From the IMG/VR virus record IMGVR_UViG_3300042991_000632, positions 27,036-91,035 of that record: 64,000 nucleotides of DNA. One strand, given 5' to 3'. Below the pieces are notes generated by a model, which saw nothing but the letters and a program-made list of their open reading frames with translations, ran no database searches and had not been told where the DNA came from. The position numbers were made by a program, and so were the translations under genes. Below are positions 17,175 through 62,982 of this stretch, in pieces. Position 1 is the first letter of the stretch, and the number at the start of each line of letters is the position of its first letter. The stretch comes from a virus (lineage: Duplodnaviria > Heunggongvirae > Uroviricota > Caudoviricetes).

Positions 17175-17449
17175 TAGTTTTGATTTTTTAGTGCTGGTTC
17201 ACAAGAATCAACAATATCATAATACTGTTTATTCTTTTGGGCATTGCTTGTTGTTAATACTTCATCCAGATGATAACCACGAACATGATCGGGTTGACTT
17301 AGGCAGATATAAAAGGTATTATCTTCCATAAATTTTCTTGACATATTGTTTGGACAGTTTCTTCCCAAACCCTTTTCTATTTTCCAATCCATGAAGTCCC
17401 TGATGCTTTGACTGATTACACCAACATAACGTTTCGTTTGCTTTTCCAT
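17174..17449 (-). CDS. hypothetical protein (91 aa)
   Basis: translationally coupled (overlapping stop/start) to the ABC ATPase gene. Confidence 0.45.
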   Translation of the reverse strand: MEKQTKRYVGVISQSIRDFMDWKIEKGLGRNCPNNMSRKFMEDNTFYICLSQPDHVRGYHLDEVLTTSNAQKNKQYYDIVDSCEPALKNQN

Positions 17450-18198
17450 TATTTCATTATTTCGTTTACATATGATTCTCTGTTAACCCATTTACGGGTC
17501 ATCATATCGAGCACATCCTCGAATTGGTTTATAAGTGCCAGTGCATGAGTACTTGCAATTATCTGGTTGCCGTTTTCTTTAACGGATTTCCGCATTTCTT
17601 TGCCAAGCCAGACCTGATTTTTAAGACTTAACGCAGTATCGGGTTCATCAAAGAATAATATGCCATCATGTGCTTTACTCAATAGATATTCAAGTATGGG
17701 TTTCATTGATTCGCCATGACTTTCTTCTTCTGCACCAAATAATTCAGCAGCCATTGGTATCATATTAGTTGGTGTTATCATTTGAGGGATGGCAACAATT
17801 GGATTATCTTTTTCTGCATCAAAGAATACAGAATTCTTAAACGAAATGTCGCCATCAACAATAAGTTCACCATGATAGTATTCTCTATGTGACTTAATGA
17901 AGTCTTCATCAGTTTTACAATCACTGAATATCCTTGCCAATTTGTCTGGTGCAGTTCCTGCATAGTTCTTAATTAAATGAAATAGGGTTGACTTGCCTGA
18001 ACCATTTTCACCCACAATGATATTCACGCCTTCATTAAATTCAATACACAAACCTTTCTTGAACAACTTAAACATCGTCCAAGGTTTTTTCTCTCTGGTG
18101 TAACGTGTAGGTTTATATGTTTTCGTACCCCAACGTTTCTGTTCTTCTTTCTCCAGAGACAGTTCGTAATTTTCTTTGAATGTGACTGACTTAATCAT
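17449..18198 (-). CDS. ABC-type (AAA_21-like) ATPase, 249 aa
   Basis: Walker A GENGSGKST, signature-like ESHGESM, Walker B ILFFDEPD, H-loop STHA. Confidence 0.75.
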   Translation of the reverse strand: MIKSVTFKENYELSLEKEEQKRWGTKTYKPTRYTREKKPWTMFKLFKKGLCIEFNEGVNIIVGENGSGKSTLFHLIKNYAGTAPDKLARIFSDCKTDEDFIKSHREYYHGELIVDGDISFKNSVFFDAEKDNPIVAIPQMITPTNMIPMAAELFGAEEESHGESMKPILEYLLSKAHDGILFFDEPDTALSLKNQVWLGKEMRKSVKENGNQIIASTHALALINQFEDVLDMMTRKWVNRESYVNEIMK

Positions 18199-35012: not shown

Positions 35013-35503
35013 GATTGATATTCTAAACCATAAAAACTTTCATTATAAAATTCGATTGCATCATCAAGACTTGCAGTCCACATAACTTCTTCATAATTAT
35101 CACCAACCAGTAATGCCACACCTTTTTTTGATTTATGTGCCAAATTTTTAAGATGTGCAAAATTATTATATGTTATGTTTTCACCAAGATGAACAAGTAT
35201 TGTGCGTTCCGGTTTACCAATTTCAACAACCGGATGCTTTTTCTTAATCGGGATCATTGTTTTAAATGATGGATTAATGTTATTATTATCGACATCATAT
35301 AGAAACGATTTTTCGAAAACAAAACGGATTTTGTTTAATGGAATCCCATTGTTAATAAGTTGTTCCTTGCTAATAGCAATTAAATGCTGATTGTTAGTAT
35401 TGGATACAACATGAGTATTAAAGTCAATTGGTGCATAATAATCAATTGCAGTAAGTTTCTTTTTGAAACTAATGAATGGAAATTTATTTGTAAATCGTAT
35501 CAT
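35009..35503 (-). CDS. hypothetical protein (~164 aa)
   Basis: start moved to ATG overlapping DUF262 stop; no clear His-Me finger motif. Confidence 0.5.
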   Translation of the reverse strand: MIRFTNKFPFISFKKKLTAIDYYAPIDFNTHVVSNTNNQHLIAISKEQLINNGIPLNKIRFVFEKSFLYDVDNNNINPSFKTMIPIKKKHPVVEIGKPERTILVHLGENITYNNFAHLKNLAHKSKKGVALLVGDNYEEVMWTASLDDAIEFYNESFYGLEYQS

Positions 35504-36309
35504 CACTTTTGAAGTTCTTTTAATAATTCTTTTACTTTATCCAGATGCTTTGAATCCATTGGCTTACCGCAGGTATTCATTTTAATGAAGGTCGAGTATA
35601 TCGCTTCCTTTGAAGGAGTCTCCAAATAACCATAACTCACGCTATAATTCAAGAATTTCCACCTGTCCTTGTTTGAAAGTTCAGAAAAATATTTACCTTT
35701 ATACTGGTATCTATCTTCATAGAATTCACAGATTGCAGTAAGTCTCTGTTTACCATCAATAACTTCATAGTATTTACCCATAGTGCTTCCGTGTTTCTGC
35801 ACGAAAACAAATTTGCCAATTTCAATGTTATTGAAGATTGAATCGATAAGAGAAACCTTATCTACCAGTTTCCAAACGTGTTCACGCTGGTATTCCACAT
35901 CAAAATCAACACCGCCCCAGCCTGAATATACCATGTGTAAGAGTGAGTCCAGACCAGAGTTAAGTTGTCTGATAAAATACTTCTCGTCAAGAGTGAAATC
36001 AGTATCTCTTATGGTATTATATTTGAATATGTTCATCCAAGGCATCGCATTCCAACTGCTGAATCCAGTTAATTTGCCTTCTTTATCATGACCAATGCTT
36101 TCTATGGTGTAATATAATCCACCCTCATGTATTGCCCTGACATAGACTTCTTCATGTGCTCCCCACACAATTCTCTCGTCAACAGCAAAGGTTCTTGTGG
36201 GATTTAAAGGCATAGCACCAAGTGCAATCATGCGCTTTAAATCTGCTATTGCACTGTCAATACTAATCTGACGTGCTTCTTCGGGAGTTATTACTTTTTT
36301 CTTTGCCAT
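35503..36309 (-). CDS. DUF262 (ParB-like / GmrSD N-terminal type) domain protein
   Basis: YQREHVWKLVDKVSLIDSIFNNIEIGKFVF ... YEVIDGKQRLTAICEF matches the DUF262 YQR...DGQQR signature. Confidence 0.6.
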   Translation of the reverse strand: MAKKKVITPEEARQISIDSAIADLKRMIALGAMPLNPTRTFAVDERIVWGAHEEVYVRAIHEGGLYYTIESIGHDKEGKLTGFSSWNAMPWMNIFKYNTIRDTDFTLDEKYFIRQLNSGLDSLLHMVYSGWGGVDFDVEYQREHVWKLVDKVSLIDSIFNNIEIGKFVFVQKHGSTMGKYYEVIDGKQRLTAICEFYEDRYQYKGKYFSELSNKDRWKFLNYSVSYGYLETPSKEAIYSTFIKMNTCGKPMDSKHLDKVKELLKELQK

Positions 36310-45604: not shown

Positions 45605-46027
45605 CTATAATAACTTTACCAAATATTTTATACAAATTTTTGAAGTTTCCATTTCTTTTTTCAAAAGACTCTTGATAACTTCTTTCTTCTCAGGATGTTC
45701 GTCCTTTAATATTATGTCACAGAGAGCGATTAAATTTAAAAGTGGGGTTACTTTGTTACGAATATCTGCTCCAATTACCCCTGATTCAATACAATCAAAC
45801 TCCACCAACTCATAATCATCAAGATTGATCTCCGGTGGAAGTGGTACTGTCTGATGTGCATAATACGCTTTCATTAACTCAACAGTTGCTGTTTCCGGTT
45901 GTGGATTAGGTAATGCACCAGTATAAACAATCCATACACCAGTATTTGGGTCTACATCACTTTCATGAAAACTTATTTCCACAAACTCTTTCGGTTCTCT
46001 TATGGTTCGAAGTGCTTTAAATTTCAT
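45605..46027 (-). CDS. hypothetical protein (140 aa)
   Basis: co-oriented ORF. Confidence 0.5.
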   Translation of the reverse strand: MKFKALRTIREPKEFVEISFHESDVDPNTGVWIVYTGALPNPQPETATVELMKAYYAHQTVPLPPEINLDDYELVEFDCIESGVIGADIRNKVTPLLNLIALCDIILKDEHPEKKEVIKSLLKKEMETSKICIKYLVKLL

Positions 46028-47670: not shown

Positions 47671-48100
47671 CTGAAAGTGTTTTTACATTGCCAGCAATAT
47701 TTTCGGCTTTCACATCACCACTTGTTGTTGATACGTCACCACCAACATTACCACATTCGATGTCACCACTTACTGTTCTCACACTGCCAGTTACATCCTT
47801 ACAATCAACGTCACCACTTGCTGTTGCAAGTTCATTTACATTACCGTTAACAATCACCTTGTCGCACACATCAACATCTAATTTGTCGATATTGGCATCT
47901 ACCGTGATATTAATTGTTTTACTTTCCGGGGTTACATCAACGCCATCGATTATTACTTTATTATTTGTAACAATGACGTTACGTCCCTCAAACGATTTAC
48001 CATTAATATTTACCATATTTTTACTTTTATCAAAAATGTTTTCAATTGAATCCTCTAAGTCTCCAAAAAAATTTTCTATATCACGAAAAAAATCTTTCAT
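47648..48100 (-). CDS. beta-helical repeat protein, possibly bactofilin-like
   Basis: degenerate G-x-V/I repeats: SGDVDCKDVTGSVRTVSGDIECGNVGGDVSTTSGDVKAENIAGNVKTLSGDI. Confidence 0.35.
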   Translation of the reverse strand: MKDFFRDIENFFGDLEDSIENIFDKSKNMVNINGKSFEGRNVIVTNNKVIIDGVDVTPESKTINITVDANIDKLDVDVCDKVIVNGNVNELATASGDVDCKDVTGSVRTVSGDIECGNVGGDVSTTSGDVKAENIAGNVKTLSGDIKYKK

Positions 48101-48870
48101 TTGTTTTTATATTGATTAACCATTTCTATTTGTATGTATTGCCAGAACCAATTGTGAAGCATTGACAGGTATTTTATATCATTAAATCCATATAAACCAC
48201 ATGAAAAGAAGTCGTGTACTTCAATGATGAAAGTTGTGTTATGGTTATCGCCAATCTTACGTACACCAACATCAAGTGTATATGCAACTGGTGCAGATTT
48301 ATAAACCTTAATTATGTCTTTGATTATATCAACATTAGGGAATAGTGTGAACTCACCAGCATAGCATTGTAAACCAACTAATTTGTTATTATAGACAAAT
48401 GCTCTCCATTCGCTATCTATGGTGATCACACTGGAAAATTGATAATTACCTGCTGGCAGGTTGACCGTTTCGCTTTGATTAAAGATTCCACATGTACCTT
48501 TAATCTTATCGTTTGATTTTATAAACGATTTACCACAGTGAGAAAAATATGCCTCAGTACCATTAAATATATGTCTGTCTGCATATGGAAATAATTCTTC
48601 CGGTACGTTTCTTGGTTTTGGTGAAAGACCATAGAAGTGCTCCAAGAATTTTGTAACAAACTCCACCGTCCCTACCGGGACATAATGTTTTTGTACTGGT
48701 TTGAATTTGAAATCAACGGCTTCCGAGGTACTGTCGAAATATTTTATAAGCACCCTTTCATTTTTATTATTCCTTGCCAACCAATTTTTAAATTCAATTG
48801 TTTGAAGCAATGTGAATGAAAAATCATGGACGATTTTTCCGTTGATCTTTTGAATTAAGAATCTCATCAT
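48097..48870 (-). CDS. possible ATP-grasp-fold protein (257 aa)
   Basis: SEWRAFVYNNKLVG and TLDVGV...FIIEVHDFFSCGLYG resemble ATP-grasp C-terminal strands; weak. Confidence 0.35.
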   Translation of the reverse strand: MMRFLIQKINGKIVHDFSFTLLQTIEFKNWLARNNKNERVLIKYFDSTSEAVDFKFKPVQKHYVPVGTVEFVTKFLEHFYGLSPKPRNVPEELFPYADRHIFNGTEAYFSHCGKSFIKSNDKIKGTCGIFNQSETVNLPAGNYQFSSVITIDSEWRAFVYNNKLVGLQCYAGEFTLFPNVDIIKDIIKVYKSAPVAYTLDVGVRKIGDNHNTTFIIEVHDFFSCGLYGFNDIKYLSMLHNWFWQYIQIEMVNQYKNK

Positions 48871-50473: not shown

Positions 50474-50965
50474 ATGGAATTCAATAAACCAGTCATATTT
50501 CTCGATATTGATGGTGTGTTGGCAACAACAGCACAATATTATACCAATAAGAAAAGTTGGCATCCAACCTATGCGTGCTATCGTTTTGATGAAAAATGTG
50601 TGAAAGTATTTAATGGTATCGTTGAAAAAACGAATCCGATTATTATACTTTCAAGTGATTGGAAAGATCATTACACTATTGCTATGATGAATGAAATATT
50701 TGAATGGAATGGTGTTAATGCTAAAGTTTCTGGTGTTACAGATTCTTCTTGGGGAGTAAAATTTACAAGTTTACAGCAACTTGAGGAATGCCGTTCATAT
50801 GAGATAAATAAGTATGTCAGCGAAAATGAATTAACCAAGTGGGTTGCTATTGATGATTTAGATTTGAAACTTTGGATGCCTGAGAATTTCGTACTGTGCA
50901 CTCGTGTCAATGAAGGTATAAAACAAAGTGGAGTTAAGGATAAAATTTTAAAAATATTGTTATGA
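50474..50965 (+). CDS. HAD-superfamily phosphatase-like protein
   Basis: motif I FLDIDGVL (DxDG) and later VAIDD. Confidence 0.55.
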   Translation: MEFNKPVIFLDIDGVLATTAQYYTNKKSWHPTYACYRFDEKCVKVFNGIVEKTNPIIILSSDWKDHYTIAMMNEIFEWNGVNAKVSGVTDSSWGVKFTSLQQLEECRSYEINKYVSENELTKWVAIDDLDLKLWMPENFVLCTRVNEGIKQSGVKDKILKILL

Positions 50966-51536: not shown

Positions 51537-52421
51537 ATGAACAATTTTTATGTTTATGGATTATTAGACCCAAGAATTGAAGAAAAATATGAATATCATA
51601 TCGATGATATTAAAATATCTTTTGATTATAAACCTTTTTATATTGGTAAGGGAAAGAAATGGCGAATAGGACAACATTTTTCAAAATATAATTTAAAGAA
51701 AAATACATATAAAAATAATAAAATTTTAAATATACTTAATGCGGGATATAAGCCAATTGGAATAAAAATATTTGAAAATTTAAGTGAAGAAAATGCATAT
51801 GAGTTAGAAATTAAATTAATATCGATAATTGGATTAAATAATTTAACAAATAAAAATACTGGCGGTCTTGGACAAAATAGTGAATCAATTATTGGTGAAA
51901 AAAATCCAATGTTTGGTAAACATCCAATTCCTTGGAATAAGGGGTTGCATGGAATAATAAAAAATCCAAATAAAGGTAAATCACTTGAAGAAATTTGTGG
52001 AAAAGAAAAGGCATTTGAAATAAAGCAGAAGCAAAGTTTGAAAAGAAAGGGAAAAACATGGGAAGAATATTTTGGTGTTGATAAAGCCAGAATGGTGAGA
52101 ATAAAAAGAAGTGAACAAAGGATGGGATATAAACATACCCAAAACACTATCGAAAAAATGAAAAAAAGTTCAACACCTGAGATTATTTCTAATCGCAAAA
52201 ATGCTATGATGAAAAAAAGACAAAATAAATTTGATGATGATATGATGAAATGTAATGATCAAATAAATCAATACCTTCGATTGGGATACACCGATTTGGA
52301 GATTATTAGAAGAATAAATGATATTTCAAGGTTTAGATTAAAAAAAATGATATTTCTATTAAAAAATAATTTAAATAGTGATTATTATTTTCATCAAAAG
52401 TATATTAATACAATTAAATAA
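51537..52421 (+). CDS. GIY-YIG homing endonuclease with NUMOD3-type DNA-binding repeats
   Basis: YVYGLLDP...PFYIGKGK (GIY..YIG), then GEKNPMFGKH, KNPNKGKSLEEI repeats. Confidence 0.7.
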   Translation: MNNFYVYGLLDPRIEEKYEYHIDDIKISFDYKPFYIGKGKKWRIGQHFSKYNLKKNTYKNNKILNILNAGYKPIGIKIFENLSEENAYELEIKLISIIGLNNLTNKNTGGLGQNSESIIGEKNPMFGKHPIPWNKGLHGIIKNPNKGKSLEEICGKEKAFEIKQKQSLKRKGKTWEEYFGVDKARMVRIKRSEQRMGYKHTQNTIEKMKKSSTPEIISNRKNAMMKKRQNKFDDDMMKCNDQINQYLRLGYTDLEIIRRINDISRFRLKKMIFLLKNNLNSDYYFHQKYINTIK

Positions 52422-52679
52422 ATGGACATAATCAAAACGATATTAATGCTGTTCCCGGTAATGATATTTTATCTTGTGGAAGCAATGTTTTCAGCAATTT
52501 TTGTTAATCTTGCATGGAGATTTATATTACAACCTAAATTTGGAATTGAAATAACCTATTTTGATTGGGTTGCAATCATTTGGATCATTAAGATTCTTCT
52601 GTTTGATGTGTTTAAAATGTTAAACGGAGTAAACATAATAAATAATCCAACTAATAGGGAAAATGATGAAATACAGTAA
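52422..52679 (+). CDS. small membrane protein (85 aa)
   Basis: hydrophobic helices. Confidence 0.4.
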   Translation: MDIIKTILMLFPVMIFYLVEAMFSAIFVNLAWRFILQPKFGIEITYFDWVAIIWIIKILLFDVFKMLNGVNIINNPTNRENDEIQ

Positions 52680-52881
52680 AGATACACCCAGAATTACGGT
52701 CAAATTTATTAATGGTGACACTGATCAAATTCTTTTTGAAATAAAAGATAGAAGTTGGATGACGGTTGGTGAGATATTTACGGATCACATGGTATCATCA
52801 TTAATTGAGCAAGAACTGAAAGGTAAAAAATTGCCAAAAAATTTATTGGTACTTGCTGTTGGGGAATATAAATTAATCTGA
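52663..52881 (+). CDS. hypothetical protein (72 aa)
   Basis: co-oriented ORF. Confidence 0.35.
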   Translation: MMKYSKDTPRITVKFINGDTDQILFEIKDRSWMTVGEIFTDHMVSSLIEQELKGKKLPKNLLVLAVGEYKLI

Positions 52882-52883
52882 TT

Positions 52884-52916
52884 TTTTGCAATATTTTTCA
52901 TTATTTTACGTATATT
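52884..52916 (+). promoter_or_regulatory. promoter-like motif (plus strand: TTTTGCAATATTTTTCATTATTTTACGTATATT)
   Basis: recurring motif instance. Confidence 0.5.
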
Positions 52917-52938
52917 AAATGTAATAAAACGTAAAGCG

Positions 52939-53544
52939 ATGAAAAAACTTATTACTTTATTAACAATACTGCTGATAATCGGCAACATGTCCGGTCAGGT
53001 AATTTCCATCTACGAACAACCATACGCCCTTGATTGGGGTCTTAAATCGTTAATGTGCCGGGATCAAAATCCTATGCCACATATTAAGGTTGGTGATAAC
53101 AAATATTACATATTATCATACACGCCTGAGAAATACAATCGCCCAATATATTGTGGATATAGAAATGAAAGGAATTTATATCTATGTCTTGTTGAGTTTA
53201 TTGGCAAAGCCGATAATTGTGGTGATATTTTTAAATATGAAATTGTTTCACCAATTCTCCAGACAGATTATATTCGATGTGAGGATGGCATTGTTTCATA
53301 TACAACATACATGGCATTTGAAAATGAAAGCGATATTTACTTTGATGGCTATAGCGGTTATATGGAAATGTTAGAAAATGGTGACATTATGATACGATTG
53401 GTTAATGTAGCAACTGACAATGAAATTTTAGAAAGGTGTGATCATAATATGAAACCATATTATAAAATATATATCTTAAAACCAACAAATAATGATAAAA
53501 GTAGTACCTTACTCTTTGACATCCGGGAGCAAAAAGTTTTGTGA
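52939..53544 (+). CDS. secreted protein (201 aa)
   Basis: MKKLITLLTILLIIGNMSGQ signal peptide. Confidence 0.45.
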   Translation: MKKLITLLTILLIIGNMSGQVISIYEQPYALDWGLKSLMCRDQNPMPHIKVGDNKYYILSYTPEKYNRPIYCGYRNERNLYLCLVEFIGKADNCGDIFKYEIVSPILQTDYIRCEDGIVSYTTYMAFENESDIYFDGYSGYMEMLENGDIMIRLVNVATDNEILERCDHNMKPYYKIYILKPTNNDKSSTLLFDIREQKVL

Positions 53545-53572
53545 ATTTATTTCACAACCATTTACAACCGAT

Positions 53573-53890
53573 ATGTTATATTCGGTAAATTCGTGCTTTG
53601 ACGGATGGATAAAGACTGCCAATTTATATAAGAATAGTGATGGGTGTATTCTTGAATTTTATTCCAATCATTATACTATTAAGGTTGGTAAACATATTCA
53701 ATATGAATTATCATTGCCAAAAACGATTAGTGATTTTATTAATGATATGCATCGACTTAATATTCAACTTTATTGGACACAATGGATTGATGATAATTTT
53801 GAGCCAAAAGAATATTTGAATGTGAATGAAATTGAAGAATATTACAGAAATTTGTTGGGTAGGATGGGTAAGTCGCATGAGTTATTTTAA
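53573..53890 (+). CDS. hypothetical protein (~105 aa; start uncertain, track start 53492)
   Basis: ORF overlaps previous gene if started at 53492. Confidence 0.35.
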   Translation: MLYSVNSCFDGWIKTANLYKNSDGCILEFYSNHYTIKVGKHIQYELSLPKTISDFINDMHRLNIQLYWTQWIDDNFEPKEYLNVNEIEEYYRNLLGRMGKSHELF

Positions 53891-53931
53891 TATAATTTGG
53901 AATTTAAAAAAATAATATATATATTTGCATC

Positions 53932-54651
53932 ATGGTTAAAAATTGGGATTTGTTAACTAATATCACATTTAAGACACAGTGCTATCGTAAAAATTTCGAT
54001 ATGATAAGCACGAATGAGCATTTCATTACAGAATGTGATGGTGAAATTACATTAATGAGATTCGAACAGGAGAAGCCATTGCTTATTGTTGGTGAGTATG
54101 GATTTTCTATTTGGAATATCAAATTAGGTAATCAATTTAACGTTAATTTCAAGAATTTAATTGAAGAACATAATGAGGAAAACATATATCATGAGTTAAA
54201 TAATCTGATAAACAGAAAAAAGTTTGAACTTAATAGTTATAATAAAATAATTCTGGTGCATTCACTTGTGTTGCGTGCTGATTATCGAAAACAAGGCATA
54301 ACAGAAGAATTCACTGAGTTATTATATAGAGATTATTATAGTGATGGTGATGCAATCATAATGCTTGTTCTGCCATTTCAAAATAATCCAATCGATAAGG
54401 AATATTATATGCAAAGAAAAACTGTTCCGGTGAGACAAAATCTTAGTATTTATCAAAGTCCGTTGCAAATTTCTGCTGCTGAATATTACTCGCTTGATAC
54501 TTTAATTGGGAAAAATGATGATGAATTAAATGAATATAAGTTATTTTCGGTGGCATCAAAGTGCGGACTTAGCAGAATTGATGATTCACATTTGTTTTTA
54601 TTTTCACCGGAAAAAACAATTGAAAGAATGAATAAGAAATATAATAATTAA
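53932..54651 (+). CDS. hypothetical protein, weak GNAT-like motif
   Basis: VLRADYRKQGITEEF loosely resembles acetyltransferase motif A. Confidence 0.4.
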   Translation: MVKNWDLLTNITFKTQCYRKNFDMISTNEHFITECDGEITLMRFEQEKPLLIVGEYGFSIWNIKLGNQFNVNFKNLIEEHNEENIYHELNNLINRKKFELNSYNKIILVHSLVLRADYRKQGITEEFTELLYRDYYSDGDAIIMLVLPFQNNPIDKEYYMQRKTVPVRQNLSIYQSPLQISAAEYYSLDTLIGKNDDELNEYKLFSVASKCGLSRIDDSHLFLFSPEKTIERMNKKYNN

Positions 54652-54657
54652 CTTACC

Positions 54658-54912
54658 ATGAGCAGAAAAAAAATTCAACTTGATGAATTTCATTATCACG
54701 AAGCACTTGATAGATCATATCTTGTTGCCGATCTACTTGAAACTGCGCTTATTGAGCATGTTGTTATTAAAAAACATAGAAATCTAAAAACAAAACTCCA
54801 GAAAGCACAGGAACTTATCGTTGAGGTTTATCAGGAACTTGGTGGTTTATCAATAACACTCTTTACTGATCCCTCAGAACTACCTGATTTTATGAAAGAT
54901 AATAAGAAATAG
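54658..54912 (+). CDS. hypothetical protein (84 aa)
   Basis: co-oriented ORF. Confidence 0.4.
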   Translation: MSRKKIQLDEFHYHEALDRSYLVADLLETALIEHVVIKKHRNLKTKLQKAQELIVEVYQELGGLSITLFTDPSELPDFMKDNKK

Positions 54913-54918
54913 TCTTTT

Positions 54919-55152
54919 ATGTCAAAGAAAAGTATTTATATAAAATACCCTATGAGCATTATTAAAACAATATTGGCAAAGATACGACAAAAAATCCCTT
55001 CATGGAAGACCGATGTTGGTCGAAATTTAGATATTTCGATGCTCCCGATACCCAGAAATCAAAAAGTTTCTGGGCATTTTCGTTTAAATAACGAGAATTT
55101 CTTAATAAAATCAGTCGGTAATAGATTGATTATCAAATTAATAGAACAATAA
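54919..55152 (+). CDS. hypothetical protein (77 aa)
   Basis: co-oriented ORF. Confidence 0.35.
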   Translation: MSKKSIYIKYPMSIIKTILAKIRQKIPSWKTDVGRNLDISMLPIPRNQKVSGHFRLNNENFLIKSVGNRLIIKLIEQ

Positions 55153-55163
55153 AATTTAATATT

Positions 55164-55904
55164 ATGGAAAAATTTAAGTCATTATTAAGGATTTTCAGCA
55201 CTATTATAGCCGTTACGATAGTTTTCGGTTTATTGGGTTTAGTTGGGTCAACTAACTCAGTTGCAAGTGGTGAGAATAAAAGTTCCAGATTGGAATATGA
55301 AAACAATGAGTTGATGACGATGAATGACATTTATGGTGATTTCATGAATGAAATCTATCCCGTGATTATGGAAAAGAAAATTGATTTTAACAACATGTCA
55401 CCGGATTCAATTCGTAAGTACTTAGACCTCATATTGGACTTATATCCAGATGTTTCGCCAATTAAAACCATTGATTCAATTCGTATATCATCAAAATATG
55501 GTTGGAGAGTTAATCCGGTTACTGGTGTAAAACATATGCATACTGGCGTTGATATAAATATGGCATTAGGGACTGATATTCATTCAACAATGAGTGGTAA
55601 GGTGGTTGAGGTTGTTGCTGTAACAAAAAATGGTTATGGTAGATATATTGATGTTAAGAACTCACTTGGTTTCAGAACAAGGTATTCACATTTGAGTAAG
55701 GTGATGGTAAAAAAAGGTGATCAGATTACTAAAGGTCAGATAATTGGAACATTAGGAACATCCGGCAATGTAACAGGACCGAATCTTCATTATGAAATTT
55801 ATCAAAATGAAGAACTTAAAAATCCATTGGATTCATTGTTTATGTTAAAACAAAGTGTTAAATTGCTAACATTAAAAGATACAATATATGATAACATATA
55901 TTAA
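55164..55904 (+). CDS. M23-family (LytM-like) peptidase with N-terminal TM anchor
   Basis: HTGVDI, GYGRYIDV...YSHLS, GTSGNVTGPNLHYEI motifs. Confidence 0.7.
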   Translation: MEKFKSLLRIFSTIIAVTIVFGLLGLVGSTNSVASGENKSSRLEYENNELMTMNDIYGDFMNEIYPVIMEKKIDFNNMSPDSIRKYLDLILDLYPDVSPIKTIDSIRISSKYGWRVNPVTGVKHMHTGVDINMALGTDIHSTMSGKVVEVVAVTKNGYGRYIDVKNSLGFRTRYSHLSKVMVKKGDQITKGQIIGTLGTSGNVTGPNLHYEIYQNEELKNPLDSLFMLKQSVKLLTLKDTIYDNIY

Positions 55905-56178
55905 GGAAATTCATAATGAAGAATATTCTGACAATAGGCAATCACTTGGTGTGATCCTCAATTATTCGGATGACGACTGGAAGGAAAGTTTTATTTATAT
56001 TTTCACGCATCAGACTAAAATATATACATTCTTTGATACTATTGTTGACATGATCGATTATCTGGTTTCTCAAGATAAAAAGATCAAACGAGCCTATATG
56101 TACGAAGATGAATATGATCAATATTTTGATTCACCAATGGATGGCACGTTCCGTGAGAAATTAACTTGGGAATTATAG
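55888..56178 (+). CDS. hypothetical protein (96 aa)
   Basis: co-oriented ORF. Confidence 0.4.
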   Translation: MITYIKEIHNEEYSDNRQSLGVILNYSDDDWKESFIYIFTHQTKIYTFFDTIVDMIDYLVSQDKKIKRAYMYEDEYDQYFDSPMDGTFREKLTWEL

Positions 56179-56190
56179 TATTTATATGGG

Positions 56191-56382
56191 ATGATAAGTC
56201 CCGAACAAGATATTGCAATCAAAAATTTCTGGGATAACATGTCTCAGATAGATAAACTCAATTTATTGTTAGAAAACAACTTTTGGGAAGGTTTTAGCGT
56301 ATATCGTTATGATTACATACCGGAAGACCTTAAAGAGATTTTAATGCGTAAAATGAAGGTAAATGAGGCAAATTCGCCATAA
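56191..56382 (+). CDS. hypothetical protein (63 aa)
   Basis: co-oriented ORF. Confidence 0.35.
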   Translation: MISPEQDIAIKNFWDNMSQIDKLNLLLENNFWEGFSVYRYDYIPEDLKEILMRKMKVNEANSP

Positions 56383-57324
56383 TTAGAACTTCTTGCTTAT
56401 CGGATTGAATATTTCGATGCGATTTGCATCAAATGCTGTATTATAACCCTCTTCCCACCAAGCAGACATTTCTTTCTGATTAAAAATCATACAATTGGCA
56501 CTTAATTTTCTCGGAAGCCAATATACAGTTACTTTTGCGCCATATTTATTTAATTTCTTAATCCTTTCGTAGAAATATTCGAATTCAATATCGTAACGCA
56601 TAGCATTAATGCTTGTGGTGACATTTTCCATGAGGTTATCAATTCTATTGCCCTCATATGTTTCAGCAGGTTTACTTCTATGTAAGATAATATCAATTTC
56701 TTTATAACCTTTCATCATTAACTGGTCAATACCAATCAATGCGGTTATGCCACCATCACTCCAATTGCCAACATGAAAACTGCCAGTTTCATTGTTCCAA
56801 CTTTTCTTAACCAATGATGTGAAAAAGGGGAAATTGGCACTGCACCACATCCAATCTTTAAAATCTTCATATTCTTCATCAACAGAACTGAAATAATGAA
56901 TCTTTGATGGAGTTTCAAGATAATTTTGTGTACCAACCAGAATTTCTTTATTCTGTTTACGTAACTCATTAAAATATTCCTCTGGAAAAAATTTGTCAAT
57001 TGTATTTCTTAATGCATTTGATGTGAATATGCTTTTTTGACCCATTAATAACGTCATTACAATAGGTATCTTTCTTAATTTACCTCTTTTTGATAATGGT
57101 TTTCCTTTATACCAGCATTTATCGAACACATTATCATCCGTAACTGTCGTATAACCCTCTCTAAGTAATTCCCATTCTTTCAGTGCTGCCAATGGTGCTA
57201 ATAGACTTCCAGTTGAAACACCAACAATAACATCGTAGTCAGCATTTATTCTCGCAAGCGTACCGCCACCGAATGCACCCTAACTGCCACCGCCTGAAAT
57301 AAGTGCTGCTCGTTTACTGTTCAT
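56383..57324 (-). pseudogene. patatin-like phospholipase interrupted by in-frame TAG at codon 15 (57280-57282)
   Basis: minus-strand MNSKRAALISGGGS*GAFGGG...VIVGVSTGSLLAP (GGGx[R/K]G oxyanion motif with stop at the R/K position; GxSxG; later SDGGITAL DGG motif); ORF track only reports the portion after the stop. Confidence 0.6.
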
Positions 57325-57339
57325 AATATCATAATATTT

Positions 57340-58422
57340 TTAAGCACCGCATGTATATGCCTCAATAAAATAACTACCACCAGCACAAAAACATGGCGAT
57401 GATTGACACGAATATATGCACGACAAATAAACTGAAGTACATGCTTGTACATTCATACCACTTGAATCTGTTTGTGCATATACTAACACACAAATAGTAT
57501 CATTATAATCGAGAGCACCAATACAGATAGAACCATATTGATTTACATTTCCACCACTTGAATAACAAGAACATCCACATTTACAAACAGTGTTGCACAA
57601 TATACACCAATACAAATTTCCAGCATCACCCGTAATATCCCCAATATAATAACTCCAATTAAAACAGGCATAATAACTACCACTCACTGGATTAGAACTT
57701 CTACATAAAAGTCCACAAGCATATTGATAATAATCGCTTGACTGTGGGTCAGGATTACAACCAGTATAACACATGTTCATATCAACAGGTGCTTCGTTCT
57801 GACAAAATGTAATTGTTCTCATTGTACCCACAGTTGGTATATAACACGCTGTTCCCTGTCTCGCAACACCCGTATTTGCATCAATACAAACAAGATGTGC
57901 CCGACCCGGAGTTGCACAAGGAGAAACGGGTGTTGTGGCATGAATCCAAGTGCATGATGTTGAAAATGATGTGTTGTTTGAAGTAGGTCCGCACACGTAT
58001 TCATAAACATTTGCACCACCACTATTAATATTTGTTTGTGCAGAAGGCGTGACATATATATTAGTATCACCAGTCGATTGACAAATTGTTACACATTTCA
58101 TTGTGCCACCCAAACTTGGTGTGTAACAAACAACTCCGCTTCTACATGAAGAAGTTATATTTTCGCAAATCTGAATATTATTTACCGTACCCGGTGAACT
58201 TGATGGTGTTACTGGCGTAGTGGTTACAAGCCAAGTACAGGCATCAGCAACTACTACACTATTATTATTGCTTCCACACACGTTTACCGAACATGTCGCT
58301 CCAAGATATGAAACACTTGTTATTAAACTTGGAGTAACATAAATCTCAATATCTGGCGGACCGGCACTAATCGTGTTATTACCAATTCTAATAATATTAC
58401 CACCAACACTTAATAATCCCAT
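57340..58422 (-). CDS. Cys-rich fibre/receptor-binding-like protein with internal tandem ~95-aa repeat
   Basis: two repeat units both beginning IYVTPS... and sharing CTW..TTPV..., GTM..T.CQ landmarks; 15% Cys/Gly/Ser/Thr-rich. Confidence 0.5.
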   Translation of the reverse strand: MGLLSVGGNIIRIGNNTISAGPPDIEIYVTPSLITSVSYLGATCSVNVCGSNNNSVVVADACTWLVTTTPVTPSSSPGTVNNIQICENITSSCRSGVVCYTPSLGGTMKCVTICQSTGDTNIYVTPSAQTNINSGGANVYEYVCGPTSNNTSFSTSCTWIHATTPVSPCATPGRAHLVCIDANTGVARQGTACYIPTVGTMRTITFCQNEAPVDMNMCYTGCNPDPQSSDYYQYACGLLCRSSNPVSGSYYACFNWSYYIGDITGDAGNLYWCILCNTVCKCGCSCYSSGGNVNQYGSICIGALDYNDTICVLVYAQTDSSGMNVQACTSVYLSCIYSCQSSPCFCAGGSYFIEAYTCGA

Positions 58423-58423
58423 G

Positions 58424-60190
58424 TTAAATACCTTTTAAAATATTAATTTCATTCTGTAAACAACAAATTTGCACTTGTTGTTCTTTTATTGCTTCAACAA
58501 GAACCGCAGTTAAATTACCATAATTTATTCCATATGTGTCACCAGTAATTCCATGTTTAATCTCATTTTCACTTGCTGGTGAACATCCAACAATTTCTGG
58601 TAATATTGGTAAAACATCCTGTGCAATAAGACCAACACTATATCTATCATCTTCAAGTACACCCTCATTAAGTTGACACATAATGAAGCATACTCCATTT
58701 AATTGAGTTATCATAGATAGTGCATTTGATATTGGTTGAATATTCTTTTTACATCTACAATCTGAAGTCGAATTCCATACCGCTGCTCTACCACAACCAG
58801 TCACAAGACAAATTGCAACACAGGCTGCTCCAGATTGAGTACCGTTCATACAACAAAATGTTGCAGCAGGAAAATAAATACCTTCATTAGTTGTACATAA
58901 TTTAAGTGTTACGAAACTATATAATGCAACACAACCACAAGTTGTAGTACCACAACCACCAAATATACAAACACTACCGCCATTTCTTGAAACTGCAGTA
59001 CTCCAAGTATTAGCATTACCACCACATATATAAAGATTACCACCGCATGCATATCCACAACCACATCCAAAACCACCTTGAAGATACACACAACCACCAA
59101 CACCAGACCAAGTTGTTGGATAACAATTTATACCAATTCCCCCGCATAAATATAGATTACCACCATACGCTGGACTTGCACTTGCGGTTTGACATGCATT
59201 TCCCCCCGCAACATATACAGCACCAGCTTGTTGTGTTGAAGTATAACCAGAACCTAAACTACCTGTGATACTAAGTCCGGGAGGTGAAGCAGTATAATAA
59301 TTACACATTTTAATAGACTTAGCAGCATCTGAACATAACATCAAACAATTACTTTTTACTGTCATAACTTCAGAAGCAGTTTGATTAATAGTAGAACCAG
59401 AAATAGTTGTTCCATTATAATAAAGTAAATCACCAGTACTTAAATTAGTACTAATATCAACAGTAGCACCAGATACAATGCAATTACCAGAATTCACATA
59501 CATAACCTGATTATCTGCAGTTTGTTTTGCAGGAACGCAACATATTTTAACTGAAGTTGAAGTAGTTTCTAATTTAACATTACCATTATATGCTAAATAA
59601 ACTGCACCACGTGGTCTTGCATCAATTGATATTTGGTCAGATGTTCTAACCATAAATCTACCATCAGTACTACCGCTTGATGACAATCCGGGATAAATCT
59701 GAATGTCACCACCAGAAGTACTACCACTACCACCACAAAGCCAAATAACACCACCAAAACTACTACCACAGCCACCTTTTAAATGAAGACAACCACCTTG
59801 ACTACCACCCGTTTGTGCATTAATACATAATGCACCGCTTCCACTTCCCGCATGAATTATACATCTATGAGTACCTGATGCAAAACTCAATACACTACCA
59901 TCAAAAGTTAAATTAGGTTCACTGCAAATTGTTCCTGAACTACTATATGTGCCAATGCCATTATTTGTTGAACCAGTCCAAGCAAGTCCACCACCACCAG
60001 AAGGGGTACACCAATGACCATAACCACTCGCATCTGAAGTTAAGACACATCCTGCAGTTGCACCAGATGTTAGTTGAATAACTGGAGTTTTAACATTTGT
60101 TGTTGCACAAACAATTGGTGAAATAACACATGTGCTACCTGAAATAATTTTATCCGTACTTATTGAACTAAGAATTTTTATCTTACCCAT
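58424..60190 (-). CDS. tail fibre/tailspike-like protein with C-terminal intramolecular chaperone (peptidase S74-like) domain
   Basis: C-terminal KKNIQPISNALSMITQLNGVCF...VGLIAQDVLPILPEIV...YGINYGNLTAVLVEAIKEQQVQI matches the S74 auto-processing chaperone signature; Gly/Ser/Cys-rich body. Confidence 0.65.
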   Translation of the reverse strand: MGKIKILSSISTDKIISGSTCVISPIVCATTNVKTPVIQLTSGATAGCVLTSDASGYGHWCTPSGGGGLAWTGSTNNGIGTYSSSGTICSEPNLTFDGSVLSFASGTHRCIIHAGSGSGALCINAQTGGSQGGCLHLKGGCGSSFGGVIWLCGGSGSTSGGDIQIYPGLSSSGSTDGRFMVRTSDQISIDARPRGAVYLAYNGNVKLETTSTSVKICCVPAKQTADNQVMYVNSGNCIVSGATVDISTNLSTGDLLYYNGTTISGSTINQTASEVMTVKSNCLMLCSDAAKSIKMCNYYTASPPGLSITGSLGSGYTSTQQAGAVYVAGGNACQTASASPAYGGNLYLCGGIGINCYPTTWSGVGGCVYLQGGFGCGCGYACGGNLYICGGNANTWSTAVSRNGGSVCIFGGCGTTTCGCVALYSFVTLKLCTTNEGIYFPAATFCCMNGTQSGAACVAICLVTGCGRAAVWNSTSDCRCKKNIQPISNALSMITQLNGVCFIMCQLNEGVLEDDRYSVGLIAQDVLPILPEIVGCSPASENEIKHGITGDTYGINYGNLTAVLVEAIKEQQVQICCLQNEINILKGI

Positions 60191-60213
60191 ATCGATTGTA
60201 TTTTATATAAATA

Positions 60214-60249
60214 CAAAAAAATGGAGTAAATTTCTAAGAATTACTCCAT
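60214..60249 (-). terminator. rho-independent terminator (minus strand)
   Basis: ATGGAGTAAATTTCTAAGAATTACTCCAT hairpin preceded by A7 on plus strand. Confidence 0.55.
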
Positions 60250-60277
60250 TTAGGTTAATTATATAAAATGTTGGATA

Positions 60278-61081
60278 TTAAAGCAGTCTTAGTTCATTCA
60301 TTAGTTGAATAACAAGATTTGTTTGTGTTGCGGACTGCAATGAAATAAATTCAAGAGTTTCCTCTGGTTTGCTTTTAATGTTTTCCCAATAATATTTAGA
60401 TAGTTCATTATGTGGCAACAGATCAGTGGTTTTCTTTAAACCCATAAAATCAGCAATTAACATTAATGTTGTATATTCAAATCCATTGAACTTCCAAACG
60501 TTTACAGTATCAATAATGCCGGATTCCCAAGGCTTAATATTTAAGGCTCTCTTGAGAATATATGGTAATTGTTTGTTTGTTTCAAATTTATCACGATTTG
60601 CAATAAATCTCTTTATGATAAATGGTATGTCATAACCAATTATGTTATGACCGCAAAGGATTGGAAATTCTTGTGGACTTGACTTGACACTATCGCTTGA
60701 CATCTGATGAAGAACATCAATAAATGAAGCAAGCACAATAAATTCATTATCGTTCACAATTTTCTTAAAGAATCTTTTCACAATACCCTTTTCAACATAT
60801 ACTGTTGCATAGGTTATTGCAATGATTTTGCAAAATTCCGGGTAATAAGTTGCGTTTTCTTCATATTTTTTCTGGCTATATTCGGTCATGTCTACCATTT
60901 GCCCCGCAGGAATGTTTAAATACTTAGTTTCAAGTAGATAATTCCAACGATCATACATTGGTTTGTTCTTCTCTTCAAGTTCTTTAATTGTTTGGTGGAT
61001 CAATACCGCTTTAATATTAAAGAAGAACATTTCATAGATAGTAGCCTTGTTGAACACATCTTCGAATAGTTGTTTTGCCAT
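60278..61081 (-). CDS. RNase-H-fold protein resembling PolB-type 3'-5' exonuclease (Exo I acidic residues not evident)
   Basis: LCGHNIIGYDIPFI (Exo II-like) and IADFMGL (Exo III-like) but no clear D-x-E upstream. Confidence 0.35.
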   Translation of the reverse strand: MAKQLFEDVFNKATIYEMFFFNIKAVLIHQTIKELEEKNKPMYDRWNYLLETKYLNIPAGQMVDMTEYSQKKYEENATYYPEFCKIIAITYATVYVEKGIVKRFFKKIVNDNEFIVLASFIDVLHQMSSDSVKSSPQEFPILCGHNIIGYDIPFIIKRFIANRDKFETNKQLPYILKRALNIKPWESGIIDTVNVWKFNGFEYTTLMLIADFMGLKKTTDLLPHNELSKYYWENIKSKPEETLEFISLQSATQTNLVIQLMNELRLL

Positions 61082-61129
61082 TGTGTATATTTTTAATTGT
61101 TGATTGGTACTACAAAGATAACATTAATT

Positions 61130-61480
61130 TTATAAATTAAAAATAAATCGAAAAAATTTTACAATAATTGGTCTTTTTTGTTCTTTGATCTCATCATAGA
61201 TGTCTTGCACATCATTAAAACTATAACCAATTAGTTCTTCTTCATCGTATTTACCATTACAGTTCTTTAAGATATATGGAATCATTTTCTTAACTATCTG
61301 TAGTTTTTCTTTGTTCTTCCTGTCAATTTCATTTAGTAATTGCTGACCGATTTCTTCAATTTCGTTAGCAATATGGTTTTTTTTTCTTTTGGTATCATCA
61401 TTAAGATGCTCAGAAAATTTCAGATAGTCTTCATTATCATCATCAGAATCGATAGATAATATATTCTTGTCTGGCGACAT
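61130..61480 (-). CDS. hypothetical protein (116 aa)
   Basis: co-oriented ORF. Confidence 0.4.
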   Translation of the reverse strand: MSPDKNILSIDSDDDNEDYLKFSEHLNDDTKRKKNHIANEIEEIGQQLLNEIDRKNKEKLQIVKKMIPYILKNCNGKYDEEELIGYSFNDVQDIYDEIKEQKRPIIVKFFRFIFNL

Positions 61481-61485
61481 TTAGT

Positions 61486-61980
61486 TTATTCTGTTGTGTG
61501 AATAGTAGTTTCTTCTGTTGTACCGTCTTCTTTTTTGGGTCTTCCGACCTTTTTCTTTTCTTCTTTTTGTGATTGTAGTGTTTTTACAAATTCCTCACTG
61601 TTTTTCTTAAATGAATTTTCTTTCAATTCATCAAGTTCTTCATAAAACTTTTTGGCTTTTTCTTCTAACATTTTTTTCATTTCAGCCATTTCACCGCCAA
61701 ATTCTTGTTCCTTCTTTGCTATTTTTTCGTTTGTTTCGATTACTATCTCAACGAACAAAACTAAATCATCGATAACAACATTGGGGTTTTTCGGTGATAT
61801 TTTAATTAATTTACCAACTTCGTTTTCTGTTAGAACCTCACATTTGATCTCATCATTATCATTGAAAATCCATGTTTTTGGTAAACCAATCTCAAGTTCC
61901 CACCAACCCTCAACGGTATTACGGATAAACGATGTTATATATCCGTCAGTTGGTTGTAATGCTGCTTCGATTACTTTCAT
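61486..61980 (-). CDS. hypothetical protein with Lys/Glu-rich C-terminus (164 aa)
   Basis: co-oriented ORF. Confidence 0.45.
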   Translation of the reverse strand: MKVIEAALQPTDGYITSFIRNTVEGWWELEIGLPKTWIFNDNDEIKCEVLTENEVGKLIKISPKNPNVVIDDLVLFVEIVIETNEKIAKKEQEFGGEMAEMKKMLEEKAKKFYEELDELKENSFKKNSEEFVKTLQSQKEEKKKVGRPKKEDGTTEETTIHTTE

Positions 61981-62174
61981 TTAATTAAGTATGAAAAAAA
62001 TATCCCTAATGATAATAACAATAAAATTTTTTCAACAGTGGTTAAAACAAATCGTGTTTCTGCTGATAATCTAAATCTTCCATACATTTTTATGATCAAA
62101 TCACCAAGGATATAGACCATAAAAATGATGGAAGATATAAATAAAAACTGATATATTTCAGTTAAAATTGTCAT
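61977..62174 (-). CDS. small 2-TM membrane protein (possible holin)
   Basis: two hydrophobic helices, 65 aa, located ~1 kb from endolysin gene; weak. Confidence 0.3.
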   Translation of the reverse strand: MTILTEIYQFLFISSIIFMVYILGDLIIKMYGRFRLSAETRFVLTTVEKILLLLSLGIFFSYLIK

Positions 62175-62177
62175 TTA

Positions 62178-62522
62178 TTACTCTCCGTGTGTCTGTCCTT
62201 GATGAACTTTACCTTGTGGCTGTTGCTGAACTGGTACTCCATCAGGTGCTGGCATTTGCATTGGCTGTTGCTGTGCTGGTTCTTGGAAATATTGTTCAAC
62301 CAATCCCATCTGAGCATTTGTCATTGCAAGATTTGCAAGTCTGAAAGACATTGCGTCAATTTTTTCTTTGTAATTTGTGTTGGGGTCTTGTGCAAGACGT
62401 ACTAATTCAAGTTCTTCATAATACTTGTCATTTCTTAATTTGTTTAAGAGATCAAGTTTTAAATTTGCCATAATTTTCCTAATTTTTAATAATATTATTT
62501 TTTGTGCTCGTAAAAATAGCAA
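62178..62522 (-). CDS. hypothetical protein (114 aa)
   Basis: co-oriented ORF. Confidence 0.4.
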   Translation of the reverse strand: MLFLRAQKIILLKIRKIMANLKLDLLNKLRNDKYYEELELVRLAQDPNTNYKEKIDAMSFRLANLAMTNAQMGLVEQYFQEPAQQQPMQMPAPDGVPVQQQPQGKVHQGQTHGE

Positions 62523-62547
62523 TAATAAATACGATATGCAAGGATTT

Positions 62548-62982
62548 TTATACGATTTCCAAGATATTTTTCTCCTGATTTATAGACTTATCGTATATGT
62601 TGTAGATTTCAACAAGAATATTAATGAGATTTTTATTTTTTTGTCTATCTATTTCAAAAATGCTTCTCCAAAATTTTTCAAAATATTCTAAAGACGTATC
62701 CTGATTGGGATTATTCTTTGCTTTATAAAATTGATGATAATAATATGCATGGAAGTACTCTTTCAACTCATCGTTTTTCGAAAAATCAATACCTTCTTTT
62801 TGGAACTCATCACATACTTTTTTAAAACACCATACAAAGTGGTTATGAATATCCTGATCTTCATGAATACTTTCATAGTCAATATAGTAATTGATAATGT
62901 AATACATAAGATTCATTGTAAAATCTTTATATATTTCAACACGATCCTTTACTATAATATATTTTTGACCAGTACTTCCCAT
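62548..62982 (-). CDS. hypothetical protein (144 aa)
   Basis: co-oriented ORF. Confidence 0.4.
   Translation of the reverse strand: MGSTGQKYIIVKDRVEIYKDFTMNLMYYIINYYIDYESIHEDQDIHNHFVWCFKKVCDEFQKEGIDFSKNDELKEYFHAYYYHQFYKAKNNPNQDTSLEYFEKFWRSIFEIDRQKNKNLINILVEIYNIYDKSINQEKNILEIV

What the first reader, a model, noticed from the sequence alone, without database searches (positions are those of the whole stretch)
56383..57324. Patatin-like phospholipase gene with a single in-frame amber codon at the conserved oxyanion-hole position
The minus strand encodes MNSKRAALISGGGS*GAFGGGTLARINADYDVIVGVSTGSLLAP... The TAG (57280-57282) occupies the R/K position of the patatin GGGx[R/K]G motif. GxSxG (GVSTGS) and the DGG aspartate motif (SDGGITAL) are intact, so the rest of the domain is undamaged. 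TAG is a single substitution away from AAG (Lys). Options: a recent inactivating mutation of a potentially toxic lipase; amber suppression or recoding; or a sequencing error. I found no other in-frame TAG in recognisable genes of this window, which argues against genome-wide TAG reassignment.
Basis: seen in the sequence. Interest (0 to 1): 0.55.

Follow-up and report, generated by a model that had tools for sequence, protein, structure and literature searches.

The report
Recent amber knockout of phage lipase
A lipase-like accessory gene of an uncultured giant T4-like phage carries one premature stop codon, made by a single G-to-A change at a tryptophan codon that all relatives keep, so it is most likely an ordinary, very recent knockout and not a change of genetic code.

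Summary
The minus-strand ORF 57324..56383 (313 codons) is a patatin-like phospholipase (Pfam PF01734, 76.5 bits) with one in-frame TAG at codon 15 (57282..57280).

The ancestral codon was not AAG/Lys. All 27 orthologous loci fetched have TGG (Trp) there, and 119 of 120 close homologues read GGGxWG. The change is therefore TGG→TAG, a G→A transition.

TAG is a true terminator in this phage. Three window ORFs end in TAG where orthologues end in TAA or TGA, and the standard code gives 92% coding. Genome-wide reassignment is refuted.

The rest of the gene shows no decay. Window-lineage changes are 47 synonymous to 13 conservative non-synonymous, as in intact relatives, with no frameshift. The lesion is very recent. 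No in-frame restart can recover the catalytic Ser37.

An independent Logan contig from run SRR35210686 is 100% identical over 11.5 kb and carries the same TAG, so an error made by a single assembler is unlikely.

No tRNA lies in the window or in 20 related loci, but most of the probably ~350-kb genome is unseen.

Best reading: a young null allele of a dispensable gene that is last in its operon. A read-level error and amber suppression remain minor rivals. Interest is low.

The parts
56383..57324 (-). Patatin-like phospholipase gene, 313 codons plus stop, interrupted once at codon 15
   Evidence: Pfam PF01734 at 76.5 bits; more than 300 homologues, the closest 88% identical and of the same length (313 aa).
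57280..57282 (-). In-frame amber codon TAG (codon 15). Orthologues have TGG (Trp), so base 57281 is the G->A change (C->T on the + strand).
   Evidence: 27 of 27 non-self orthologous loci have TGG. W in 119 of 120 homologues.
57283..57324 (-). The 14 codons (MNSKRAALISGGGS) that would be translated before termination at the TAG
57208..57222 (-). Codons 35-39, GVSTG: the GxSxG nucleophile elbow with catalytic Ser37, downstream of the TAG
   Evidence: G35, S37 and G39 are invariant.
56749..56757 (-). Codons 190-192, DGG: the catalytic Asp motif
   Evidence: D190 and G191 are invariant in alignment A1.
56383..57192 (-). Residual 269-codon ORF from the first in-frame alternative start (TTG, codon 45). 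This is what gene callers report. It lacks the Gly-rich loop and Ser37, so it cannot be an active enzyme.
   Evidence: the Logan gene call is 269 aa.
56176..56178 (+). TAG used as a genuine terminator of the 96-aa ORF 55888-56178. Orthologues stop with TAA one or two codons away, and the next ORF lies in variable frames in relatives.
54910..54912 (+). TAG used as a genuine terminator of the 84-aa ORF 54658-54912. Orthologues stop with TAA or TGA nearby, and the downstream ORF is in frame 0, 1 or 2 in relatives.
45605..45607 (-). TAG terminator of the 140-aa ORF 45605-46027. The L002 orthologue ends at the same residue with TGA.

Best explanation
The feature is a genuine, very recent nonsense (amber) allele. 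A single G->A transition turned the clade-invariant Trp15 codon TGG into TAG in the patatin-like lipase gene of an uncultured jumbo T4-like phage whose relatives have genomes of about 350 kb. Under the standard code, which this phage demonstrably uses, translation ends after 14 residues. No in-frame start lies before codon 45, beyond the catalytic Ser37, so no active enzyme is made (shown from the sequence). The gene is the last one of a minus-strand operon (tail fibre, 360-aa ORF, patatin) and abuts a convergent gene, so the stop has no polar effect on downstream genes. Loss of this accessory function is evidently tolerated in the sampled population (inferred). The allele is either fixed in that population or is the majority variant of a polymorphism.
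For: TAG at codon 15. TGG in all 27 other orthologous loci, none of which has a stop. W in 119 of 120 homologues. TAG is a real terminator in three orthology-checked window genes. Stop usage is 79 TAA, 28 TGA and 7 TAG, and the standard code gives 92% coding. An independent Logan contig (SRR35210686_224620) is 100% identical over 11,525 bases and carries the same TAG. Neighbouring genes have orthologue-like lengths, so there is no sign of a generally error-ridden assembly. Window-branch substitutions are 47 synonymous to 13 conservative non-synonymous, against 41:9 and 24:7 in intact relatives, and pairwise dN/dS is 0.05-0.07. This means the lesion is young. There is no unusual RNA structure 3' of the TAG (z=0.21) and no tRNA in the window or in 20 related loci.
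Against: The complete lack of decay is equally what a functional (suppressed) gene or a base-call error would show. The phage is seen in only one sequencing run, so allele frequency and read support are unknown. About 80% of the presumed genome, where a suppressor tRNA could lie, was not available.
Confidence: 0.76

Rival explanations
1. Consensus or base-call error: the true base is G (TGG) and the gene is intact.
For: It is a single substitution in an otherwise perfectly conserved gene with no sign of relaxed constraint. The allele is seen in only one run. The two assemblies may derive from the same reads.
Against: The window and a separately built Logan contig agree at every one of 11,525 bases, including the TAG. 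No other gene in the shared 20 kb looks broken relative to orthologues. From my own knowledge, substitution errors rarely survive a short-read consensus.
Confidence: 0.1
2. The TAG is read through by an amber suppressor tRNA, phage-encoded elsewhere in the genome or carried by the host. The lipase would then be made at reduced or late-gated levels. This would be an incipient form of the stop-codon recoding described for low-GC phages.
For: The window has low GC (about 33%) and TAG is the rarest stop at 6%. The gene sits beside tail-fibre and cell-wall-hydrolase genes. Recoded stops are reported to emerge first in structural and lysis genes after acquisition of a suppressor tRNA (bioRxiv 10.1101/2021.08.26.457843). 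The downstream ORF is perfectly preserved. In the wider family this loop position tolerates K, R, W, L, Y, H, M and F. Shine-Dalgarno-free, A-rich start regions suggest a Bacteroidota host, the host group of many recoded phages (the host is an inference).
Against: Only one in-frame TAG occurs in 64 kb. Three nearby genes use TAG as their true terminator. There is no tRNA in 67 kb of this phage or in 20 related loci. Known phage TAG recoding replaces Gln codons, not Trp, and Trp is invariant in this clade. No orthologue has TAG at this or any other site.
Confidence: 0.08
3. Genome-wide reassignment of TAG to a sense codon (a code-15-like phage).
For: None beyond the single TAG.
Against: Coding fraction is 92% under the standard code, with tightly tiled ORFs. 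Seven ORFs end in TAG, and three of these were verified against orthologues that end in TAA or TGA at the same place. No second gene is interrupted.
Confidence: 0.01

Closest known systems
Classical amber (nonsense) mutants of T4-like phages / young unitary pseudogenes
   Same: A single TGG->TAG transition creates a premature stop in an otherwise intact gene. The product is a short N-terminal peptide unless a suppressor tRNA is present.
   Different: This one was found in a metagenome-derived consensus, not selected in the laboratory. The gene is accessory, with unknown function in the phage.
Patatin-like phospholipases (Pfam PF01734; potato patatin Pat17, CBASS effectors CapV/CapE)
   Same: Shared features are the Gly-rich oxyanion loop, the GxSxG serine, the DGG aspartate and the patatin fold. 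The AF2 model of orthologue P0002 has pLDDT 82, and Foldseek gives E 2e-9 to 1e-7 against CapE, Pat17 and CapV.
   Different: This clade has Trp where canonical members have Arg or Lys. phmmer and hmmsearch find no sequence-level PDB hit. There is no PHROG family, and only a weak PADLOC phospholipase-effector hit at E=2e-5. No cyclase gene is adjacent, and the gene is phage-borne next to tail-fibre genes.
Stop-codon-recoded phages (TAG->Gln in crAss-like and Lak phages; Borges et al. preprint 10.1101/2021.08.26.457843)
   Same: Low GC, rare TAG terminators, and an in-frame TAG in a gene near structural and lysis-type genes.
   Different: Here there is one TAG, not dozens. TAG is still a verified terminator. 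Coding density under the standard code is normal. The replaced codon is Trp, not Gln. No suppressor tRNA was found in the sequence available.

Membership tests
Patatin-like phospholipase (PF01734) | Profile match above Pfam's gathering score | tested here: met
   76.5 bits against a 27.7 cut-off, residues 9-201, profile positions 3-189 of 191 (TAG replaced by a sense residue for the scan).
Patatin-like phospholipase (PF01734) | Gly-rich oxyanion-hole loop GGGx[R/K]G after strand beta1 | tested here: inconclusive
   The loop G11-G-G-S-x-G16 is present and lies between E5-9 and H13-26 in the model. The [R/K] position is Trp in the clade, and it is the TAG in the window. The wider family shows K/R, W, L, Y and others.
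Patatin-like phospholipase (PF01734) | GxSxG nucleophilic serine and DG[GA] catalytic aspartate (Ser-Asp dyad) | tested here: met
   G35-V-S37-T-G39 and D190-G-G are conserved across the alignment.
Patatin-like phospholipase (PF01734) | Patatin alpha/beta fold | tested here: met
   AF2 model of orthologue P0002 (88% identical): pLDDT 82.4, pTM 0.84. The top 18 Foldseek PDB hits are all patatin-fold lipases: CapE, Pat17, CapV, a cryo-EM lipase complex (9kh6), VipD and iPLA2beta.
Patatin-like phospholipase (PF01734) | Lipid acyl-hydrolase activity | not testable with these tools
   Needs a biochemical assay. The window allele is predicted to make no enzyme.
Stop-codon-recoded (TAG-sense) phage | Low coding density or fragmented genes under the standard code, restored when TAG is read as sense | tested here: not met
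   Coding fraction is 92% under the standard code. Only the patatin ORF is rejoined by reading TAG as sense.
Stop-codon-recoded (TAG-sense) phage | TAG not used as a terminator | tested here: not met
   Three TAG terminators coincide with TAA or TGA terminators of orthologues.
Stop-codon-recoded (TAG-sense) phage | Suppressor tRNA with anticodon CUA | tested here: inconclusive
   ARAGORN finds no tRNA in the 64-kb window, in L001 or in 19 related loci. Roughly 80% of the presumed genome (about 350 kb, judged from relatives) was not available.
Recent nonsense allele / young pseudogene | Premature stop at a position that is a sense codon in intact orthologues | tested here: met
   TGG in 27 of 27 orthologous loci, all without stops.
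Recent nonsense allele / young pseudogene | Secondary decay (extra stops, frameshifts, raised dN/dS) | tested here: not met
   There is none: 47 synonymous to 13 non-synonymous changes on the window branch, and the same length as orthologues. This is compatible only with a very recent lesion; my rough bound is under about 6% of the branch.
Recent nonsense allele / young pseudogene | Read-level support for the mutant base | not testable with these tools
   Only assemblies are available. Two assemblies agree.
CBASS CapV/CapE effector | Operon with a CD-NTase cyclase | tested here: not met
   None of the neighbouring genes that were scanned or listed has a cyclase Pfam hit, in the window or in relatives. 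The neighbours are tail-fibre, M23/SLT and amidase genes.

The most novel reading that the evidence does not exclude
The TAG is not a knockout but the first recoded codon of a low-GC, TAG-depleted jumbo phage that probably infects Bacteroidota. An amber-suppressor tRNA encoded elsewhere in the roughly 350-kb genome would gate synthesis of a membrane-active lipase to late infection. That would be an observable intermediate on the proposed path to stop-codon recoding, and unusually at a Trp position.
Probability: 0.05. Interest if true: 0.6.

Novelty: already known. Interest (0 to 1): 0.12.

Why it matters
As it stands, this is a routine point knockout of an accessory phage gene. Its practical value is as an annotation warning: gene callers report a 269-aa 'patatin' that lacks the catalytic serine.

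It would matter only if reads and a complete genome showed a suppressor tRNA and further in-frame TAGs. In that case it would capture the earliest step of code change in a phage.

A side value is that the work defines a large, uncharacterised patatin clade that is conserved in environmental jumbo T4-like phages. The clade has Trp at the canonical Arg/Lys loop position, and its role (lysis aid, virion enzyme or anti-defence) is unknown.

Tried and rejected
**Genome-wide TAG reassignment.** Rejected on coding density, verified TAG terminators and the absence of other rejoined genes.

**Other read-through fusions.** Two pairs of small ORFs are separated by TAG in the same frame (54658-54912 with 54919-55152, and 55888-56178 with 56191-56382). 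I first suspected them as further read-through fusions. They were rejected because relatives terminate the upstream ORF with TAA and place the downstream ORF in frame 0, 1 or 2.

**Reinitiation or frameshift rescue.** Rejected. The first in-frame start after the TAG is TTG at codon 45, past Ser37, and the downstream ORF is in the zero frame, so a frameshift cannot help.

**Read-through-stimulating RNA structure.** None was found (z=0.21).

**Suppressor tRNA.** None was found in the window, L001 or 19 related loci. This is not conclusive for the whole genome.

**Same-strain TGG or TAG allele in other samples.** Exact-pattern scans of JGI metagenomes and IMG/VR found nothing. Exact-protein look-ups find this phage only in SRR35210686.

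**Other searches that returned nothing.**
- Megablast of the locus against cultured phages gave no hit.
- Sequence search of the PDB gave nothing usable.
- A literature search for the accession numbers gave nothing.

**CBASS-effector identity.** Rejected, because no cyclase gene lies nearby.

Full report
**Observation.** Reading the minus strand from ATG 57324 gives 313 codons ending at TAA 56385-56383, with one internal stop: TAG at codon 15 (57282..57280). With that codon filled in, the protein matches Pfam Patatin PF01734 at 76.5 bits against a 27.7 cut-off, over residues 9-201.

**What the codon was.** A protein search returned 335 homologues. The closest are 88% identical, and most of the 120 listed are 311-313 aa long. 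In a 31-sequence alignment, the window protein keeps all 83 invariant columns, and the column under the TAG is Trp in every other sequence, reading GGGSWGAFGGG.
- Of the 120 homologues listed, 119 have Trp there. One has a four-residue deletion of the loop.
- At the DNA level, all 27 non-self orthologous loci recovered have TGG at codon 15 and no stop anywhere in the gene.
- The lesion is therefore TGG→TAG, one G→A transition at 57281.
Among 50%-identity representatives of the wider family, that position is most often K or R, followed by W, L, Y, H, M and F.

**What the protein is.** An AlphaFold2 model of the 88%-identical orthologue P0002 has pLDDT 82.4 and pTM 0.84. Its best PDB fold matches are the CBASS effectors CapE and CapV and potato patatin Pat17 (Foldseek E from 2e-9 to about 1e-7, TM about 0.5-0.58).
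- Sequence searches of the PDB find nothing.
- PHROGs has no family for it.
- PADLOC gives only a weak phospholipase-effector hit, E=2e-5.
- It is thus a divergent, uncharacterised patatin clade.

**Who carries it.** The window encodes rIIB, a Dda-like helicase and an RNA ligase. It also encodes a tail fibre with a Peptidase_S74 chaperone domain, an M23 peptidase and an Amidase_2.
- The closest cultured-phage relatives of the helicase are only about 35% identical, and megablast of the locus finds no cultured phage.
- Orthologous loci lie on IMG/VR viral contigs of up to 363 kb. The host genome is therefore an uncultured jumbo T4-like phage.

**Is TAG a sense codon here?** No.
- Under the standard code, ORFs tile 92% of the window, and only four gaps reach 250 nt.
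- Stop usage among 114 non-overlapping ORFs is 79 TAA, 28 TGA and 7 TAG.
- Reading TAG as sense rejoins only the patatin gene among the ORFs selected as coding. It also rejoins two pairs of small ORFs (54658-54912 with 54919-55152, and 55888-56178 with 56191-56382). In relatives, the upstream ORF of each pair ends with TAA or TGA within a few codons of the same position, and the downstream ORF lies in frame 0, 1 or 2. They are separate genes, and the window's TAGs there are true terminators.
- A third TAG terminator, for ORF 45605-46027, ends at exactly the residue where the L002 orthologue ends with TGA.

**Can the gene still make enzyme?**
- After the TAG, the first in-frame start codon is TTG at codon 45, past Ser37. 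This is the 269-aa ORF that gene callers report, and it cannot be active.
- A frameshift cannot help, because the downstream ORF is in the zero frame.
- The 123 nt from the TAG onward fold no better than shuffled sequence (z=0.21).
- ARAGORN finds no tRNA in the window, in the overlapping contig L001 or in 19 related loci. Full-length protein would therefore need a suppressor tRNA encoded in unseen parts of the genome or in the host.

**How old is the lesion?** I counted codons where the window differs while its two nearest relatives agree. There are 47 synonymous and 13 non-synonymous changes, and the latter are all conservative (I/V/L, K/R, Y/F, D/E and the like).
- The same counts for the intact relatives are 41:9 and 24:7, and pairwise dN/dS is 0.05-0.07.
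- There is no frameshift or second stop.
- The gene was thus under normal purifying selection for essentially the whole branch. By a rough calculation of my own from those counts, any neutral period is less than about 6% of the branch.

**Is it an error?** The Logan contig SRR35210686_224620 (14.8 kb) is 100% identical to window 52476-64000 and carries the same TAG.
- Neighbouring genes have the same lengths as their orthologues.
- This argues against an artefact of one assembler. The two assemblies may still rest on the same reads.
- The phage is seen only in that run. Exact-pattern scans of JGI metagenomes and IMG/VR found no same-strain copy with either allele. Read-level confirmation is the missing piece.

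**Mechanism and context.** The gene is the last of a minus-strand operon (tail fibre 58424-60190, 360-aa ORF 57340-58422, then patatin). Its stop codon abuts the end of a convergent plus-strand ORF at 56382/56383. A nonsense codon here therefore has no downstream genes to silence.
- The most likely account is a spontaneous G→A transition at the only codon for Trp, which is one transition from two stop codons. This produced a null allele of a dispensable accessory gene, which is fixed or in the majority in the sampled population (confidence about 0.76).
- The rivals are a base-call error (about 0.10), amber suppression or incipient recoding (about 0.08), and genome-wide reassignment (about 0.01, refuted).

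**Comparison with recoded phages.** A survey of recoded phages describes a path from low GC and depleted TAG/TGA terminators, through acquisition of suppressor tRNAs, to recoded stops in structural and lysis genes (bioRxiv 10.1101/2021.08.26.457843).
- The window shares three of these traits: low GC (about 33%), rarity of TAG terminators, and the location beside tail-fibre and wall-hydrolase genes.
- It fails every defining test that could be run: one TAG only, TAG still a terminator, normal coding density, a Trp and not a Gln position, and no suppressor tRNA found.
- I give this novel reading about 5%.

**Verdict.** This is a real feature and an ordinary phenomenon. Its Lys inference should be corrected to Trp. 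Interest is low unless reads and a complete genome reveal suppression.

Noticed in passing
window 1-64000 (start regions of 114 ORFs): Only 2 of 114 ORFs have a Shine-Dalgarno-like motif upstream. The upstream regions are A-rich instead, with A at 60-70% at positions -12 and -13. This is the initiation style of Bacteroidota, so the host is probably a member of that phylum (inference).
   Followed up: partly
window 55164-55904 (+) vs L002 11410-12087, L010 5217-5897 and L011 2359-3039: The same genomic slot, overlapping the start of the conserved ~96-aa ORF, holds an M23 peptidase in the window but an SLT lytic transglycosylase in the closest relatives. This is a non-orthologous replacement of a peptidoglycan hydrolase.
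   Followed up: partly
window 57340-58422 (-): The 360-aa ORF between the tail fibre and the patatin gene has no Pfam or PHROG hit. In relatives it is replaced by unrelated ORFs of 167 aa, or of 108 and 168 aa; only L026 gives a weak match. It is a hypervariable slot next to the tail fibre, possibly linked to host range.
   Followed up: partly
window 41361-43238 (-), 48097-48870 (-), 50474-50965 (+): Several RNA/tRNA-repair-type genes occur in this part of the window: a Thg1-like tRNA-His guanylyltransferase, an RNA ligase, an R2K ATP-grasp protein and a HAD_SAK_2 'Swiss Army Knife RNA repair' domain. This suggests a counter-measure to host tRNA-cleaving defences.
   Followed up: no
window 51537-52421 (+); L002 4234-4968: A GIY-YIG (LEM-3-like) plus NUMOD3 homing-endonuclease-type ORF is present in the window. 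The relative L002 has a GIY-YIG ORF at a different site, after Amidase_2. This fits mobile endonuclease genes.
   Followed up: no
window 35503-36309 (-), 17449-18198 (-), 5219-6856 (-): Three phage ORFs have defence-like domains: a GmrSD_N nuclease domain, an AAA_15/AAA_21 ATPase (AbiEii-like) and an HATPase_c_3 protein. They may act in inter-phage competition or anti-defence.
   Followed up: no
protein P0112 (311 aa, on 6 contigs): One homologue of the patatin clade lacks four residues of the Gly-rich loop, including the Trp (LISGGAFGGGT), yet is otherwise full length. It may be a natural loop-deletion variant, or inactive.
   Followed up: no
locus L027 10001-10930: The most divergent orthologue (57% identity) has a degenerate loop, GNGSWDSYGNG, that still keeps the Trp.
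   Followed up: no
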